In this document: positions 24,103-28,488 of the stretch, in pieces | Numbering within the stretch: position 1 is the stretch's first letter | Layout of the letters: each line of letters opens with the position of its first letter | UHGV virus genome: UHGV-1978634 | Origin: a virus | Strand: one strand, 5' to 3' | Length of the DNA stretch: 39,633 nt | The notes under the pieces: model-generated | Database searches by the model: none | Told to the model about the DNA's origin: nothing | Seen by the model: only the letters and a program-made list of their open reading frames with translations | Translations under genes and position numbers: made by a program

Positions 24103-24486
24103 TTAGAAGGGAATTGAATCGTCGTATTCAGGATGATTTTGATGATTGCTACTTTGTTGCTGTTGGCTGTTTCCTGAAGTTGCAAATCCAATCTTTGCAT
24201 TCAGTAATTCAAGAGTGATTGATTGACCATTTTGCCCCTGATAAACATCAACCCTGATGTTTTCTCCGGTAATTTCCACAATGCCACCTTCAACAAGAAC
24301 GCTACGGTAGTAATCCGCTTGCGCTCCCGGCTTGGCAAATACAACGGCGCTGTAGTTTGTCCATTCTTTCTTTTTTGTCTGGCGATCGTAATACTGAACG
24401 CCAGCACGGATGTTGAATCCGATATTTTCCCCGGCCTGAAACTCTCTTGCGGGCTTGTTTAGTCTTACAGTAATCGAATGTGCCAT
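24103..24486 (-). CDS. Phage single-strand DNA-binding protein-like (OB fold, acidic DDSIPF tail)
   Basis: ORF 24103..24576, ATG at 24486; C-terminal ..EYDDSIPF resembles the SSB tail DDDIPF; adjacent to erf. Confidence 0.6.
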   Translation of the reverse strand: MAHSITVRLNKPAREFQAGENIGFNIRAGVQYYDRQTKKKEWTNYSAVVFAKPGAQADYYRSVLVEGGIVEITGENIRVDVYQGQNGQSITLELLNAKIGFATSGNSQQQQSSNHQNHPEYDDSIPF

Positions 24487-25091
24487 TAAGCAGCCGCTCC
24501 TTCTAATTCGTCTCGTCTGATGTTGTAAACGTCCTGCGCTTTGTGCTGCTCCGGTGTGCCTTCGAGCATCTTCCACGCTTTGGCGAACGCCTGTTTAAGC
24601 TCTTCCACGTTGTTTTTCTGCATTGCTGCGTCAGTGAATGCTTTTAGAACCTGTTCAGGTGTAGGTGATGGTTTTGATTGCTTTGCTGCTGCGTTCTGCT
24701 GATGTTTATGCTCGTCTGTATCTGCATCTTTCGCATCATCAATGCCGAATAAACCATTGAGGCAATACTTGCGTGCATAAGAGCTTGTAGCTCCCGTAAC
24801 TTGTGCAGAATCCATTCCTTTCTTGCTTTCTTCCTCTCGTGCAAGAGCGGTTGCCGTATGACTGTTTTCGCCATCGGTAATAGTTGCCGTGGCTTTCACG
24901 TAATACCGATCACCAATCAACACAACTTCATCGCTGATTGATAAAAACAGGCCATTCAGTAACGGCTTAACGCCTTCAAGAATGTCTTCGCAGCTTCTGT
25001 ATTTATATTTGCCGAATGAGTTGTACTGATTCTTTGGCGCGTTCAGATTCTCCTGAATAGCTGCCAGTCTTGCGTAAAATTCTTTGCTCAT
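24486..25091 (-). CDS. erf: Erf single-strand annealing recombinase
   Basis: MSKEFYARLAAIQENLNAPKNQYNSFGKYKYRSCEDILEGVKPLLNGLFLSISDEVVLIGDRYYVKATATITDGENSH.. matches the P22 Erf family as I recall it. Confidence 0.85.
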   Translation of the reverse strand: MSKEFYARLAAIQENLNAPKNQYNSFGKYKYRSCEDILEGVKPLLNGLFLSISDEVVLIGDRYYVKATATITDGENSHTATALAREEESKKGMDSAQVTGATSSYARKYCLNGLFGIDDAKDADTDEHKHQQNAAAKQSKPSPTPEQVLKAFTDAAMQKNNVEELKQAFAKAWKMLEGTPEQHKAQDVYNIRRDELEGAAA

Positions 25092-25180
25092 ATGATTGTT
25101 CTCAGAATGGACATGGCCCAAGGAAATAACGCTGATTTAATACTTCAGTCTTTGCCGCATTTAAAAATACGCGAACACCT

Positions 25181-25517: not shown

Positions 25518-25796
25518 AGGATGCTCCTTCTGTTTGATTGCATAACGAAAACGCCTCAAGTGAAGCGTTATTGGTATGCATATAAAAAGGCCCTCACACT
25601 GGAGGGCAAAGAAGATTTCCAACAATCAGAACAAGTCGGCTCCTGTTTAGTTACGAGCGACATTGCTCCGGTATTCACTCGTTGGAATGAATACACAGTG
25701 CAGTGTTTATTCTGTTGTTTATGCCAAAAATAAAGGCCGACTATGCGGCCTGAAATTACTTAACCAATGATGCTGCATTATTCAATTAGGAATAAC

Positions 25797-26180
25797 TTAG
25801 GTGCAAGCCAAATCTTCAACCATTTCGAAATTGAAGGCAATAATTAAAACGCCAATAATTGAGCCAAATATAGGAGCAAATACAGTGCATATATCGTAAT
25901 AAAACGAAGATATAAAATATCTATCGTTTGGACATCCATCTAAAGACGTCCATCTCTCGCCATTATTTCTTGCCGTTCTTGCAAAACTAGGAAGTTTCAT
26001 TGCTGCAATTAAAAGCAACAACCCAGCCACTTGGAAAAGTGCGCTATGGACAAAACTCCATGTTAGCAACTGACGAACAACATCAGGAATCTGTGCCTGG
26101 CTAAATGAAACAGCCGCGTCTATTCCATTACTGGCTTTTTGCAGAAGTTCTACGAGAATCTTGTTTGCTTGTTCTTCCAT
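25797..26180 (-). CDS. Membrane protein in pL operon (candidate superinfection-exclusion-type protein)
   Basis: 127 aa with hydrophobic segments; AT-rich. Confidence 0.55.
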   Translation of the reverse strand: MEEQANKILVELLQKASNGIDAAVSFSQAQIPDVVRQLLTWSFVHSALFQVAGLLLLIAAMKLPSFARTARNNGERWTSLDGCPNDRYFISSFYYDICTVFAPIFGSIIGVLIIAFNFEMVEDLACT

Positions 26181-26238
26181 ATATCACCTTGATTGTAATA
26201 AGCATGAAATTATTTACGGACAAAAATAAAGGCCACCA

Positions 26239-26439
26239 TCAGGCAGCCTTGTTATTCTGTTTACTAAGTTCTCTGGCAATCATTGCCGTCGTTCGTATTG
26301 CCCATTTATCGACATATTTCCCATCCTCCATTACAGGAAACATTTCTTCAGGCTTAACCATGCATTCCGATTGCAGCTTGCATCCATTGCATCGCTTGAA
26401 TTGTCCACACCATTGATTCTTATCAATAGTCGTAGTCAT
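26239..26439 (-). CDS. Small Cys-rich protein (66 aa)
   Basis: WCGQFKRCNGCKLQSEC motif. Confidence 0.5.
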   Translation of the reverse strand: MTTTIDKNQWCGQFKRCNGCKLQSECMVKPEEMFPVMEDGKYVDKWAIRTTAMIARELSKQNNKAA

Positions 26440-26517
26440 AAGGATAGTCCTGGTATTGTTCCATCACATCCTGCGGATGCTCTTCGAACTCTTCAAATTC
26501 TTCTTCCATATATCACC

Positions 26518-26817
26518 TCAAATAAGTGGTTTGCTTCCTAATTTCATTTTCTGGCGACCAACACAAGTCACCCCCATTTCACTGCGTGGCTTGCGGTAGT
26601 AAATACGGTTCTGTTTACGCTCGACTTCTTCTGCCTTTTTGCAGCGAAGGCTTCCGAGTGATGTTGCTTTGTCTGCTCTGACGCAACCAGAGAGCTTTAG
26701 CGCAATTTTTCGCGCCAGTCGCTGCTCTTGCATTGCCTGTTCACGTTGAGCCTGTCTGCGTGCTCTGCGGCGATTTCTGGCGTTATCGTCAGCCAGATAT
26801 GTAATGACTACTGTCAT
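26518..26817 (-). CDS. N: Antiterminator N-like protein
   Basis: ORF 26518..26910; ATG at 26817 with GGAGG RBS; arginine-rich motif NARNRRRARRQAQREQ near the N-terminus. Confidence 0.7.
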   Translation of the reverse strand: MTVVITYLADDNARNRRRARRQAQREQAMQEQRLARKIALKLSGCVRADKATSLGSLRCKKAEEVERKQNRIYYRKPRSEMGVTCVGRQKMKLGSKPLI

Positions 26818-27167: not shown

Positions 27168-27214
27168 TGCCAATCTGTTCCGTTTGGCTTCCAGCGTCCT
27201 GCTGATGGCTAAAG

Positions 27215-27299
27215 AATACTGTAGGTATTTTATTGTGTAAATACCCAAGGTATTTATTTTTGGTGAAATAATGATAAGCAAATGAATACAAAGGATATT
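27215..27299. promoter_or_regulatory. OL operator cluster / pL region
   Basis: Three 15-bp palindromes AATAC-N5-GTATT (27215-27229, 27240-27254, 27285-27299, last one imperfect). Confidence 0.65.
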
Positions 27300-27385
27300 T
27301 ATTTTTTCGGTGTCTGCTTGTTCAGTGTTTTTTATGCGGGATATGTGAAGTTGATCCCGATAGCTATTGCTGCCGGGATTATGGG

Positions 27386-27775
27386 TTAGTCAGCGAAGGT
27401 TAAGACGAGAATTACCTTAATGATGTCTGCTACAACAGACACGGCCATAGATAAACCAAAGACGATCCAAGCCATAGAGATGTCTTCACTACCATCGTAT
27501 AGCGTTCCGTAATCACTGGTGTAAGGCGTAAATGTCGCGCCTTGATACAACAGGTATAAGCTTGAACCATAGAGGATAAATGCAGATATCCCTTGTATTG
27601 CTATGACCACTAGAATCATGAAACGAGCAGATCTATGCGCCCAAGCCTGGCTTATTTTTTCTGATAGAGATTTCGCAATAAAAGCATGCGCTAAGCCGTA
27701 AATTGTTGAGATTGCCAACATCCCCAAAAAGCTTGCTATAGCGGTTCCAACCATAATCGCCCCTTGCGTGATCAA
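27386..27775 (-). CDS. Polytopic membrane protein co-transcribed with cI (candidate exclusion / abortive-infection factor)
   Basis: 129 aa, 3-4 predicted TM helices; start overlaps the cI stop by 4 nt. Confidence 0.7.
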   Translation of the reverse strand: MITQGAIMVGTAIASFLGMLAISTIYGLAHAFIAKSLSEKISQAWAHRSARFMILVVIAIQGISAFILYGSSLYLLYQGATFTPYTSDYGTLYDGSEDISMAWIVFGLSMAVSVVADIIKVILVLTFAD

Positions 27776-28488
27776 ACCAGCCTTAGTTTTGTCTCAATTG
27801 CAACGCCTATAATCTTGCAGTTTCCATTGATTGGCACGAGAGGCCATGCAGGATTAAGTCCCTTGAGGTATTTATTTCCGCCGTCGATTATCAGCTTCTT
27901 GAATGTTGCTTCGTTAGAGTCAGAATGTTTTGCTATGACCAAGCTGCCGTTGATCGCCTCCCTTCCGGTATCGAAAAGAACGAATGTTCCCTCTGGAATG
28001 CTTAACCCAACCGGTGCCGTCATTGAATCACCTTCCACTTTAAGCCAGAACGCATTACCTTGAATATGCGCGTCAGACTCAAGCCAAACATCTATGTCTT
28101 TAATGGTGTATGGTTCGCATGCTTCACACCACGAGCCAGCCTGGATACTGCTTAACACCGGATACCTCTTTCCTGCTCTGTATTCCCCTGCATACCTTAC
28201 GTTGGCATCGCTCTTAAGGCTTTCTGCCTGTTCTGCAACCTTGGCAGCAATTGACTGGCTAAAATCAGCAATTGAGACTTGCAACAATCGTGCAAAACCA
28301 GATGCAACCTCAACGTTTAGCGCGTTTCTGCCATTAAGATAATGCCCTACCGCTCCTTGGGTGATACCCAGTTCATCAGCGATTGAGTATTGGGTTATTC
28401 CCAATTCTTTCTTTTTTGACTCATACAAAGCCTTAAGCCGCTTAGCGTCTTCGAGCTGTTCTGTCGTCAGTGATTTTTTATTTTCCAT
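27772..28488 (-). CDS. cI: CI-type repressor (HTH plus LexA-like S24 peptidase domain)
   Basis: 238 aa; ..LGITQYSIADELGITQGAVGHYLNG.. HTH; C-terminal ..VEGDSM.. autocleavage domain. Confidence 0.9.
   Translation of the reverse strand: MENKKSLTTEQLEDAKRLKALYESKKKELGITQYSIADELGITQGAVGHYLNGRNALNVEVASGFARLLQVSIADFSQSIAAKVAEQAESLKSDANVRYAGEYRAGKRYPVLSSIQAGSWCEACEPYTIKDIDVWLESDAHIQGNAFWLKVEGDSMTAPVGLSIPEGTFVLFDTGREAINGSLVIAKHSDSNEATFKKLIIDGGNKYLKGLNPAWPLVPINGNCKIIGVAIETKLRLV

What the first reader, a model, noticed from the sequence alone, without database searches (positions are those of the whole stretch)
26172..26518. 18-bp perfect direct repeat duplicating an RBS-start module
ttcttccatatatcacct occurs at 26172-26189 and 26501-26518; on the minus strand each copy reads aggtgatatATGgaagaa, supplying the RBS and first codons (MEE..) of the 127-aa membrane protein and of a 28-aa acidic peptide (26423..26509). 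This suggests duplication or recombination that recycled a translation-initiation cassette.
Basis: seen in the sequence. Interest (0 to 1): 0.35.

Follow-up and report, generated by a model that had tools for sequence, protein, structure and literature searches.

The report
Shared gene-start linker between swappable phage cassettes
The 18-base repeat is real: it is the ribosome-binding-site-plus-start-codon "linker" that lambda-like phages use as the left edge of an interchangeable accessory-gene slot after gene N, and this phage carries two such cassettes in a row, a clear but ordinary case of known phage mosaicism.

Summary
Observation confirmed. AGGTGATATATGGAAGAA (minus strand) occurs exactly twice, at 26501-26518 and 26172-26189. 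Chance does not explain it, and no other pair of gene starts in the window shares more than 13 of 18 bases.

The region is the early-left (PL) operon of a P22-like lambdoid phage, closest to CUS-3. The gene order is N, orf28, ral, terminator, Sf6-gene-34-like membrane protein, terminator.
- Copy 1 starts the 28-aa peptide, which is lambda's annotated orf28. It is under purifying selection and always linked to ral.
- Copy 2 starts the membrane-protein gene.

Related phages and prophages settle the interpretation.
- Many carry a single copy that joins the N 3' end directly to gene 34. They lack exactly the 329 bp between the repeats.
- The same linker (CCACTTATTTGAGGTGAKATATG) precedes at least 12 unrelated ORFs.
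- Most of these cassettes end at one shared terminator boundary.
- The flank of copy 2 is a relic of another N allele's 3' end.

The repeat is therefore not a local duplication. It is the conserved left boundary of two alternative post-N cassettes that recombination placed in tandem. This is a new example of the known "boundary sequence"/moron mosaicism of lambdoid phages. Interest is low to moderate.

The parts
26501..26518 (-). Repeat copy 1: SD (AGGTGAT) + ATG GAA GAA of orf28. Its first base is the A of the N stop codon TGA (26518-26520).
26172..26189 (-). Repeat copy 2: SD + ATG GAA GAA of the Sf6-gene-34-like membrane protein gene.
26519..26537 (-). 5' extension of the conserved left boundary (GAAGCAAACCACTTATTTG, the last codons of 21-type N). 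It stays attached to the module in at least 7 unrelated upstream contexts, including lambda, P22 and Sf6, where N is not adjacent.
26518..26817 (-). Antiterminator N (mosaic; the 3' half is phage-21 type).
26423..26509 (-). orf28, a 28-aa acidic peptide equal to lambda orf28/lambdap47 (phrog_16060). Its stop lies 14 nt inside ral.
26239..26439 (-). ral, the restriction-alleviation protein (PF11058).
26220..26250 (-). Intrinsic terminator after ral. It includes right-boundary repeat B1, GGCCTTTATTTTTG (26221-26234).
   Evidence: (D13)
26190..26220 (-). 31-nt spacer between the ral terminator and copy 2. It is a non-coding relic of the 3' end of a lambda-type N allele, 21/31 identical to the N end in HF4s/L053.
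25797..26180 (-). Homolog of Sf6 gene 34 / CUS-3 ECRS218_0047 (phrog_3054, function unknown, TM helices). It is 127 aa here against 140 aa in relatives, because of two extra A's.
25725..25751 (-). Second intrinsic terminator plus right-boundary repeat B2, GGCCTTTATTTTTG (25725-25738). Lambda-like sequence (GCATAAACAACAGAATAAACACTG...) resumes after it.
   Evidence: (D13)
24486..25121 (-). Erf-family single-strand-annealing recombinase of the same operon (context: a candidate enzyme for short-homology exchange).

Best explanation
The two 18-mers are two copies of the conserved left boundary of an interchangeable accessory-gene slot immediately downstream of antiterminator N in the PL operon of lambdoid phages. 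The boundary consists of the last ~6 codons and stop of N, a strong Shine-Dalgarno (GAGGTGAT), a 2-nt spacer and the ATG. In the phage population it is followed by many unrelated small genes. Most of these end at a common right boundary, an intrinsic terminator ending in GGCCTTTATTTTTGGCATAAA. This phage, like CUS-3 and Sf6, carries two such cassettes in tandem: orf28-ral-terminator, then gene-34-like-terminator. The second cassette arrived together with about 20-30 nt of another N allele's 3' end, so each cassette kept its own copy of the linker. Functionally, each copy is the ribosome binding site and start codon of its gene (shown by anatomy and by coding conservation). The short shared homology is where cassettes are exchanged, added or lost by recombination between co-infecting phages or prophages. 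That is inferred from natural recombinants; the enzyme, probably Erf/Red-type annealing or RecA, is also inferred. The extra GAAGAA identity may mark a joint inside codons 2-3. It may also be coincidence: both proteins naturally begin Met-Glu-Glu.
For: (1) Precise one-copy junctions exist. In L013, L014, L015, L017, L018, L020, L021, L024 and L064 the BLAST segments ending at window 26498 and starting at window 26189 overlap by exactly the 21-nt repeat, so the 329-bp orf28-ral-terminator segment is absent (sequences). The same junction occurs in the isolated phage HF4s. It also occurs as a contiguous match in 10 of the 60 listed E. coli complete genomes, e.g. 3CM, EC6622, A41, PapM-32-1 and N921. 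(2) The reciprocal product, orf28-ral-terminator followed directly by lambda-like sequence with no gene 34, is the lambda/21/HK140 arrangement. The gene-34 cassette in the window is bounded by the 14-nt repeat GGCCTTTATTTTTG. (3) A 120-locus sample of the 23-nt linker CCACTTATTTGAGGTGAKATATG shows at least 12 unrelated ORFs after it. Homology ends 3-9 nt into the ORF. At least 7 of those cassettes end 2-18 nt before the same terminator boundary. L032 has an 83-aa gene placed between AGGTGATATATGGAA and the ral terminator. (4) orf28 copies have at least 7 unrelated upstream contexts, and homology always begins about 20 nt upstream of the SD. (5) The copy-2 flank is 21/31 identical to the N 3' end of L053/HF4s. 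No other 31-mer among 79,285 in the window reaches that, and it is only 7/31 identical to the copy-1 flank. (6) Gene-start role: distant gene-34 homologs keep M-[EN]-[ED]-Q-A-N-K-I-L with different SDs. In orf28, 16 of 18 variable events fall at codon position 3, and 10 are synonymous against 13.6% expected (P = 3e-5). (7) The phage encodes Erf. Rad52-like recombinases, including an Erf, recombine short or diverged homologies efficiently and are proposed drivers of lambdoid mosaicism (PMC3945230, PMC2327257). The idea of short conserved boundary sequences as recombination sites is summarised in PMC3029335.
Against: No recombination event was observed directly. The one-copy forms could be ancestral rather than deletion products. 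The best one-copy relative is only 98.2% identical, so there is no sign of recent deletion in this lineage. The neighbouring 133 nt of conserved gene-34 5' sequence and the N 3' half are longer homologies that could host most crossovers, leaving the 18-mer merely adjacent to them. The linker may be conserved mainly for translation (strong SD, possible coupling to N termination) rather than as a recombination substrate. The final 6 nt of identity could be coincidental, since 5 of 11 other cassettes also begin ATGGA.
Confidence: 0.8

Rival explanations
1. Chance or convergent evolution: two unrelated genes independently evolved the same optimal SD-spacer-ATG-GAA-GAA because it translates well. 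There is no shared history and no recombination role.
For: Both proteins naturally begin Met-Glu-Glu: gene-34 homologs at 47-70% identity keep MEEQ/MNEQ, and orf28 is Glu-rich. Several other post-N cassettes also start ATGGAA. The last 6 nt could therefore be coincidence.
Against: The repeat is 18/18 identical, against a maximum of 13/18 among 2016 pairs of gene starts in the same genome, and 0.02 matches are expected by shuffling. Distant gene-34 homologs use different SD sequences, so the SD part is not dictated by the gene. The same 23-nt linker, including non-functional N-derived bases, is found in front of at least 12 different genes. That indicates common descent plus exchange.
Confidence: 0.05
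2. Local segmental duplication within this genome: a copy of the N-orf28 junction was duplicated downstream of ral and captured gene 34.
For: The repeat is direct, 329 bp apart, in the same operon.
Against: The 31 nt upstream of the two copies are 7/31 identical, whereas the copy-2 flank matches another N allele's end at 21/31. Identity stops after 18-21 nt on both sides. The tandem arrangement is shared by CUS-3, Sf6 and many prophages, so it did not arise in this genome.
Confidence: 0.03
3. The repeat is primarily a cis-regulatory RNA/DNA site that happens to overlap two starts, for example a target for a translational repressor, an sRNA or an RNase, or a coupling element that ties translation of the next gene to N.
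For: The N stop codon overlaps the SD of copy 1 (TTTGAGGTGA), which would allow termination-reinitiation coupling. The copy-2 SD/AUG can pair with its upstream flank in a 13-bp A/U-rich hairpin. The linker is conserved in front of many genes.
Against: The copy-1 region has no significant structure (z = -0.41). The copy-2 fold, including the terminator, reaches only z = -1.64. No Rfam family reaches threshold; the only hit is STnc230 on the opposite strand at 27 bits against a 50-bit gathering score. Natural variants change SD bases (AGGTGAGAT, AGGGGATAT, AGGTTAGAT, AGATGAGAT), as expected for a tolerant RBS rather than a specific operator. In lambda and P22 copy 1 is not preceded by N, so coupling to N cannot be its general role.
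Confidence: 0.1

Closest known systems
Boundary (linker) sequences at lambdoid mosaic junctions: the Susskind-Botstein modular theory, and the 'bsq' features of Clark et al. 2001 / Casjens et al. 2004 annotated in the Sf6 and CUS-3 records
   Same: A short sequence is conserved between phages whose adjoining genes are unrelated. It lies at a gene boundary, and natural recombinants join inside it. The Sf6 record already annotates the right-hand boundary of this very slot (terminator region after gene 34) as bsq4.
   Different: The left boundary described here (N 3' end + SD + ATG) is not annotated as a bsq in the Sf6 or CUS-3 records. It coincides with a translation-initiation region, and in this genome it is present twice as a direct repeat.
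Morons (Juhala/Hendrix): extra gene units inserted between conserved genes
   Same: The gene-34 cassette is present in some genomes and absent from otherwise collinear relatives such as lambda and 21. It carries its own terminator.
   Different: No sigma-70 promoter-like site was found in front of it. It appears to rely on N-antiterminated PL transcription, and its insertion borders are conserved linkers rather than random novel joints.
Lambda orf28 (lambdap47)-ral module
   Same: The window's orf28 has the commonest protein sequence among the 110 orf28 copies collected, lambda's among them, and differs from lambda's at 2 synonymous sites of 87 nt. The stop/start overlap with ral is also conserved.
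   Different: In lambda, P22 and HK140 sieB is inserted between N and orf28. Here orf28 abuts the N stop codon directly, as in phage 21.
Integron gene cassettes (attC/attI)
   Same: Promoterless single-gene cassettes are arrayed downstream of a fixed expression point and delimited by recurring boundary sequences.
   Different: There is no integrase next to the slot and no imperfect-palindrome attC structure. Exchange would be by general or annealing recombination on short homology. This is an analogy only.

Membership tests
Lambdoid boundary sequence / mosaic junction | Short sequence conserved among phages while sequence on one or both sides is unrelated | tested here: met
   At least 7 unrelated upstream contexts for the orf28 copy. 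At least 12 unrelated downstream ORFs after the 23-nt linker.
Lambdoid boundary sequence / mosaic junction | Lies at a gene or module border | tested here: met
   It spans the N stop, the SD and the ATG of the next gene.
Lambdoid boundary sequence / mosaic junction | Natural genomes exist whose junction falls inside the conserved sequence (recombinant configurations) | tested here: met
   One-copy N|18-mer|gene-34 junctions in IMG/VR loci, in HF4s and in E. coli prophages. An 83-aa gene substitution in L032.
Lambdoid boundary sequence / mosaic junction | Recombination demonstrably occurs at the sequence | not testable with these tools
   This needs crosses or deep sequencing of lysates. No sibling at 99% identity or more differing only by the 329 bp was found.
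Moron | Gene present between genes that are adjacent in related phages | tested here: met
   Lambda, 21 and HK140 go from the ral terminator directly into GCATAAATAACAG.... In the window the same sequence resumes after the gene-34 cassette.
Moron | Own promoter | tested here: not met
   The consensus scan found no promoter-like site between 26190 and 26260 on the minus strand. The only -10-like hexamer, TACAAT, lies about 6 nt from the SD and lacks a -35 (read).
Moron | Own terminator | tested here: met
   Terminator-like hairpin 25751-25734 followed by a T run.
Functional bacterial RBS/start | SD complementary to the 16S 3' end, short spacer, start codon, and an ORF with evidence of coding | tested here: met
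   AGGTGAT + AT + ATG. orf28 shows codon-position-3 variation, P = 3e-5. The gene-34 family is conserved from residue 1. Actual translation was not measured.
Tandem/segmental duplication | Homology of the two copies extends into their flanks, or the duplicated units are paralogous | tested here: not met
   Flanks are 7/31 identical. The downstream ORFs are unrelated beyond MEE. The repeat ends after 21 nt.
Lambda orf28 family (phrog_16060) | Full-length match to the 28-residue profile, located immediately upstream of and overlapping ral | tested here: met
   E = 7e-19 over residues 1-28. The orf28-ral overlap is conserved in lambda, 21, Sf6, P22 and ST415. Lambda gene order is ral-orf28-sieB-N (PMC10695390).
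Known RNA family (Rfam) | Match at gathering score | tested here: not met
   Only a sub-threshold STnc230 hit on the opposite strand: 27 bits against 50, E = 0.65.

The most novel reading that the evidence does not exclude
The N-stop/SD/ATG linker and the common terminator boundary together form a selectively maintained, integrase-free cassette-exchange site. It would work as a 'plug-in socket' directly behind antiterminator N. Short-homology annealing (Erf/Red) would let lambdoid phages swap, stack or drop promoterless anti-defence or exclusion genes, each cassette automatically acquiring a strong RBS and N-dependent early expression. On this view the conservation of the linker, including the otherwise useless fossil N codons kept in lambda, P22 and Sf6, is due to selection for exchangeability and not only for translation.
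Probability: 0.2. Interest if true: 0.55.

Novelty: new member of a known kind. Interest (0 to 1): 0.3.

Why it matters
The repeat gives a clean, base-resolved example of how lambdoid phages shuffle small early accessory genes such as ral. Both borders of the slot are conserved, the empty, single and stacked states all exist in nature, and the left border doubles as a ready-made translation start. That makes the long-debated role of short boundary homologies, as opposed to illegitimate joints, experimentally testable at one defined locus. It also flags lambda's tiny orf28 as a genuinely conserved coding partner of ral. It does not reveal a new kind of element.

Tried and rejected
- Local duplication: rejected, because the flanks are unrelated and the copy-2 flank matches another N allele.
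- Chance or RBS convergence: rejected by the gene-start baseline and by shared non-functional flanking bases.
- Structured RNA or known RNA family: folding z-scores are -0.41 and -1.64, and Rfam gives only a sub-threshold opposite-strand hit.
- Promoter in front of gene 34 (true moron): none found.
- Function of the gene-34 family and of the alternative cassettes: Pfam and PADLOC gave nothing, and PHROGs lists only 'unknown function' families.
- Recent deletion between the repeats in this lineage: no one-copy sibling at 99% identity or more was found in 5,426 E. coli genomes. The best is 98.2%, so the direction (deletion or ancestral state) remains open.
- Published ribosome-profiling evidence for lambda orf28: the paper I remembered (PNAS 2013) is not held, and another lambda profiling paper does not mention orf28 or ral.
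- Diverged ral loci from IMG/VR: the best 80 were all 98-100% identical. Divergent examples (P22, vB_ST415_1NRH) were taken from the phage collection instead.

Full report
OBSERVATION.

The 18-mer TTCTTCCATATATCACCT is present at 26172-26189 and 26501-26518 and nowhere else in the window, even allowing 3 mismatches. Dinucleotide-preserving shuffles expect 0.02 matches. The identity extends to 21 nt with one mismatch (D5).

On the minus strand both copies read AGGTGATAT-ATG-GAA-GAA. Copy 1 opens a 28-codon ORF (26423-26509) and copy 2 opens a 127-codon ORF (25797-26180).

RBS convergence is not a sufficient explanation. Among 64 crude gene starts of the window (2016 pairs of the -9..+9 segment), mean identity is 7.0/18 and the maximum is 13/18. 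No other start matches the motif at more than 11/18.

CONTEXT.

The minus strand here is the early-left (PL) operon of a P22-like (Lederbergvirus) lambdoid phage. The best match in the phage collection is CUS-3, at 97.8% over 96% of a 1.25-kb query. Prophages of UTI89, NU14, APEC O18 and IHE3034 are 99.2-99.8% identical.

The gene order, read on the minus strand, is:
- the cI-type repressor, 27772-28488;
- N, 26518-26817 (phrog_271);
- the 28-aa ORF;
- ral, 26239-26439 (PF11058, E = 4e-48);
- an intrinsic terminator, 26250-26229;
- the 127-aa ORF (phrog_3054, function unknown; equivalent to Sf6 gene 34 and CUS-3 ECRS218_0047);
- a second terminator, 25751-25734;
- further downstream, Erf at 24486-25121 (PF04404).

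The 28-aa peptide matches phrog_16060 over its whole length (E = 7e-19). It corresponds to lambda's annotated orf28 (lambdap47), which lies between ral and sieB (table in PMC10695390).

WHAT RELATIVES SHOW.

(a) One-copy junctions. I collected homologs of the 127-aa protein from IMG/VR. In L013, L014, L015, L017, L018, L020, L021, L024 and L064 the N 3' end runs straight through a single copy of the module into the gene-34 body...aaaccacttatttgAGGTGATATATGGAAGAAcaagcaaac.... BLAST against the window gives two segments, one ending at 26498 and one starting at 26189. They overlap in the relative by exactly the 21-nt repeat. These genomes therefore lack precisely the 329 bp between the repeats.

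The same contiguous junction is found in three other places:
- the isolated phage HF4s, where N is followed directly by a 'TM helix-containing protein';
- L065, which has a lambda-type flank;
- 10 of the 60 listed E. coli complete genomes, at 95-98% identity.

(b) The reciprocal state. Lambda, 21 and HK140 have orf28-ral-terminator followed directly by GCATAAATAACAGAATAAACACTG.... In the window that sequence resumes only after the second terminator. The 496-bp gene-34 unit is bracketed by a 14-nt direct repeat GGCCTTTATTTTTG at 26221-26234 and 25725-25738 (D13, 62).

The locus therefore reads A-cassette1-B-(31 nt)-A-cassette2-B. Both the A×A and the B×B deletion-type arrangements exist in nature.

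(c) Many genes share the same linker. The ORF after the linker was:
- orf28, about 55 times;
- a 156-aa MTKSWSVPF... protein, about 33 times;
- an 83-aa MEFHESAI... protein, 14 times;
- a 107-aa MEALVVER... protein, 6 times;
- gene 34, 6 times;
- at least seven further unrelated ORFs.

Identity with orf28 stops 3-9 nt into the ORF, and gene 34 shares the longest stretch at 9 nt. At least seven of these cassettes end 2-18 nt before the same terminator boundary, GGCCGCATAGTCGGCCTTTATTTTTGGCATAAACAACAG. The Sf6 record annotates that boundary as 'bsq4; boundary sequence'.

L032 shows the 83-aa gene placed exactly between AGGTGATATATGGAA and the last codons plus terminator of ral, followed by copy 2 and gene 34.

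(d) Upstream contexts. The orf28 copy occurs behind at least seven unrelated sequences: 21-type N, the sieB side in lambda, P22 and HK140, Sf6 gene 36, a terminator, and others. Homology always begins about 20 nt upstream of the SD, at GCAGCAAACCACTTATTTG. That stretch is the end of 21-type N.

(e) Origin of copy 2. The 31 nt upstream of copy 2 (tccgtaaataatttcatgcttattacaatca) are only 7/31 identical to the copy-1 flank. They are 21/31 identical to the 3' end of a lambda-type N allele that directly precedes gene 34 in L053 and HF4s. In those genomes the N stop TGA overlaps the SD. No other 31-mer among 79,285 in the window reaches 21/31. The spacer is therefore a non-coding relic of another N gene. 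The gene-34 cassette came from a genome in which it followed N directly.

(f) Native sequence of the gene-34 family. Homologs at 46-70% identity keep M-[EN]-[ED]-Q-A-N-K-I-L but use different SD sequences. ATGGAAGAA is thus native to gene 34, whereas the SD part belongs to the linker.

THE TWO GENES ARE REAL.

Sixteen orf28 alleles were found among 110 copies. In the part that does not overlap ral, 16 of 18 variable events lie at codon position 3. Ten are synonymous, against 13.6% expected (binomial P = 3.4e-5). Six of the eight replacements are Glu/Asp exchanges. In the other two frames only 0 and 2 of the 18 changes would be synonymous.

orf28 accompanies ral in all 80 ral loci sampled. It is also present in P22 and in vB_ST415_1NRH, where Ral is only 74-77% identical. 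The arrangement in which the ral ATG lies 14 nt before the orf28 stop is conserved.

This suggests, but does not prove, that translation of ral is coupled to orf28. The only SD-like element in front of ral is AGGA, 8 nt upstream (annotated in phage 21).

MECHANISM.

Shown: each copy sits at the start of a conserved coding sequence with a canonical SD and spacing. The module is a population-wide mosaic boundary, and one-copy, alternative-cassette and tandem states all exist.

Inferred: cassettes are exchanged by recombination within the short shared homology. The tandem state arose by joining a ral-type genome, after its terminator, to a gene-34-type genome about 20-30 nt before the end of N.

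A plausible catalyst is the phage's own Erf. Rad52-like recombinases, including an Erf, recombine short or diverged homologies 20- to 100-fold better than RecA in lambda assays and are proposed to drive lambdoid mosaicism (PMC3945230; PMC2327257). Short conserved boundary sequences as recombination sites are an established proposal (summarised in PMC3029335).

CAVEATS.

- No event was observed directly.
- One-copy genomes may be ancestral rather than deletion products. No sibling at 99% identity or more that differs only by the 329 bp was found.
- Longer adjacent homologies, namely the N 3' half and the first 133 nt of gene 34, could host many of the crossovers.
- The linker may be conserved mainly for translation.
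- The GAAGAA part of the repeat may be coincidental, because both proteins start Met-Glu-Glu and 5 of 11 other cassettes begin ATGGA.

RIVALS.

Chance or convergence, local duplication, and a dedicated regulatory site were each considered.
- The first two are contradicted by the flank data.
- For the third, there is no significant RNA structure at copy 1 (z = -0.41).
- There is only a weak A/U-rich hairpin that could mask the copy-2 SD/AUG (z = -1.64 including the terminator).
- No Rfam family reaches threshold.
- Natural variants tolerate changes in SD bases.

COMPARISON AND NOVELTY.

The feature works like, and meets the testable criteria of, a lambdoid boundary sequence at the edge of a moron-like cassette slot. 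It fails the promoter criterion of a classical moron. It is not a duplication, and it is not an integron-type site.

The genes and the arrangement already exist in sequenced phages (CUS-3, Sf6). The right boundary is already annotated as a boundary sequence in the Sf6 record. The left boundary, and its coincidence with the RBS and start, is not annotated as such in the Sf6 or CUS-3 records.

I rate it a new member of a known kind, with interest about 0.3. The most novel reading still open is that the linker is selectively maintained as an integrase-free plug-in site for promoterless early genes (probability about 0.2).

Noticed in passing
window 25776 and 25822 (minus-strand gene 25797-26180): Relative to CUS-3 and Sf6 the gene-34 homolog has two extra A's in A-runs (TTCGAAATGG against TTCGAATGG; GAATAATGC against GAATATGC). 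This gives a 127-aa product instead of 140 aa. It is either a genuine frameshift or a homopolymer sequencing error.
   Followed up: partly
window 26423-26509 and 26239-26439 (minus strand): The lambda orf28 homolog shows clear coding-type conservation: 16/18 variable events at codon position 3, P = 3e-5. It is invariably linked to ral, with a conserved 17-nt stop/start overlap, even in P22 and vB_ST415_1NRH where Ral is 74-77% identical. It may be a translational-coupling leader or a functional acidic partner of Ral.
   Followed up: yes
window 26172-26209 (minus strand): The predicted RNA fold pairs the relic-N flank (UUUCAUG..UUAUUAC) with GUGAUA-UAUGGAA, which is the SD and AUG of copy 2, in a 13-bp A/U-rich hairpin. 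It could damp translation of gene 34 now that the flank is no longer translated. It is not statistically strong (z = -1.64 including the terminator), and covariation was not tested.
   Followed up: partly
window 25725-25738 and 26221-26234: A 14-nt exact direct repeat GGCCTTTATTTTTG (the terminator tails) brackets the 496-bp gene-34 unit. It corresponds to the shared right boundary of many post-N cassettes, which the Sf6 record annotates as bsq4.
   Followed up: yes
window 27215-27306: Three copies of a 22-nt repeat (AATACCCAAGGTATTTATTTTT-like, spacing 25 and 45) lie next to a promoter-like site at 27241..27213 on the minus strand. They are probably the OL operators and PL (D1, 6).
   Followed up: no
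window 27386-27775 (minus strand): A 129-aa multi-TM ORF lies between the repressor gene and PL (phrog_6534, function unknown; no Pfam or PADLOC hit). It sits where rexB-type exclusion genes lie in lambda.
   Followed up: no
window 26181-26261 (plus strand): A sub-threshold Rfam hit to the enterobacterial sRNA STnc230 (27 bits against a 50-bit gathering score, E = 0.65) lies antisense to the ral terminator and copy 2. It is probably chance.
   Followed up: no
L166 (P22) 1078-1116; several IMG/VR loci: A second linker type, ttttGGCAGCAAGCCACAGAGGTGAATATG, precedes P22 orf78 and other early-left genes. In some loci it directly precedes orf28. This suggests that the whole early-left accessory region is built from cassettes joined by a small set of related SD-ATG linkers.
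   Followed up: partly
L004 (lambda) ~1545-1570; L166 (P22) ~788-806; L002 (Sf6) ~1500-1525: In phages where N is not adjacent to orf28, about 20 nt resembling the 3' end of 21-type N (GCAAtCCACTATTTa/gAGGTGA) still precede orf28. This implies that sieB (lambda, P22, HK140) or gene 36 (Sf6) was inserted between N and orf28.
   Followed up: partly
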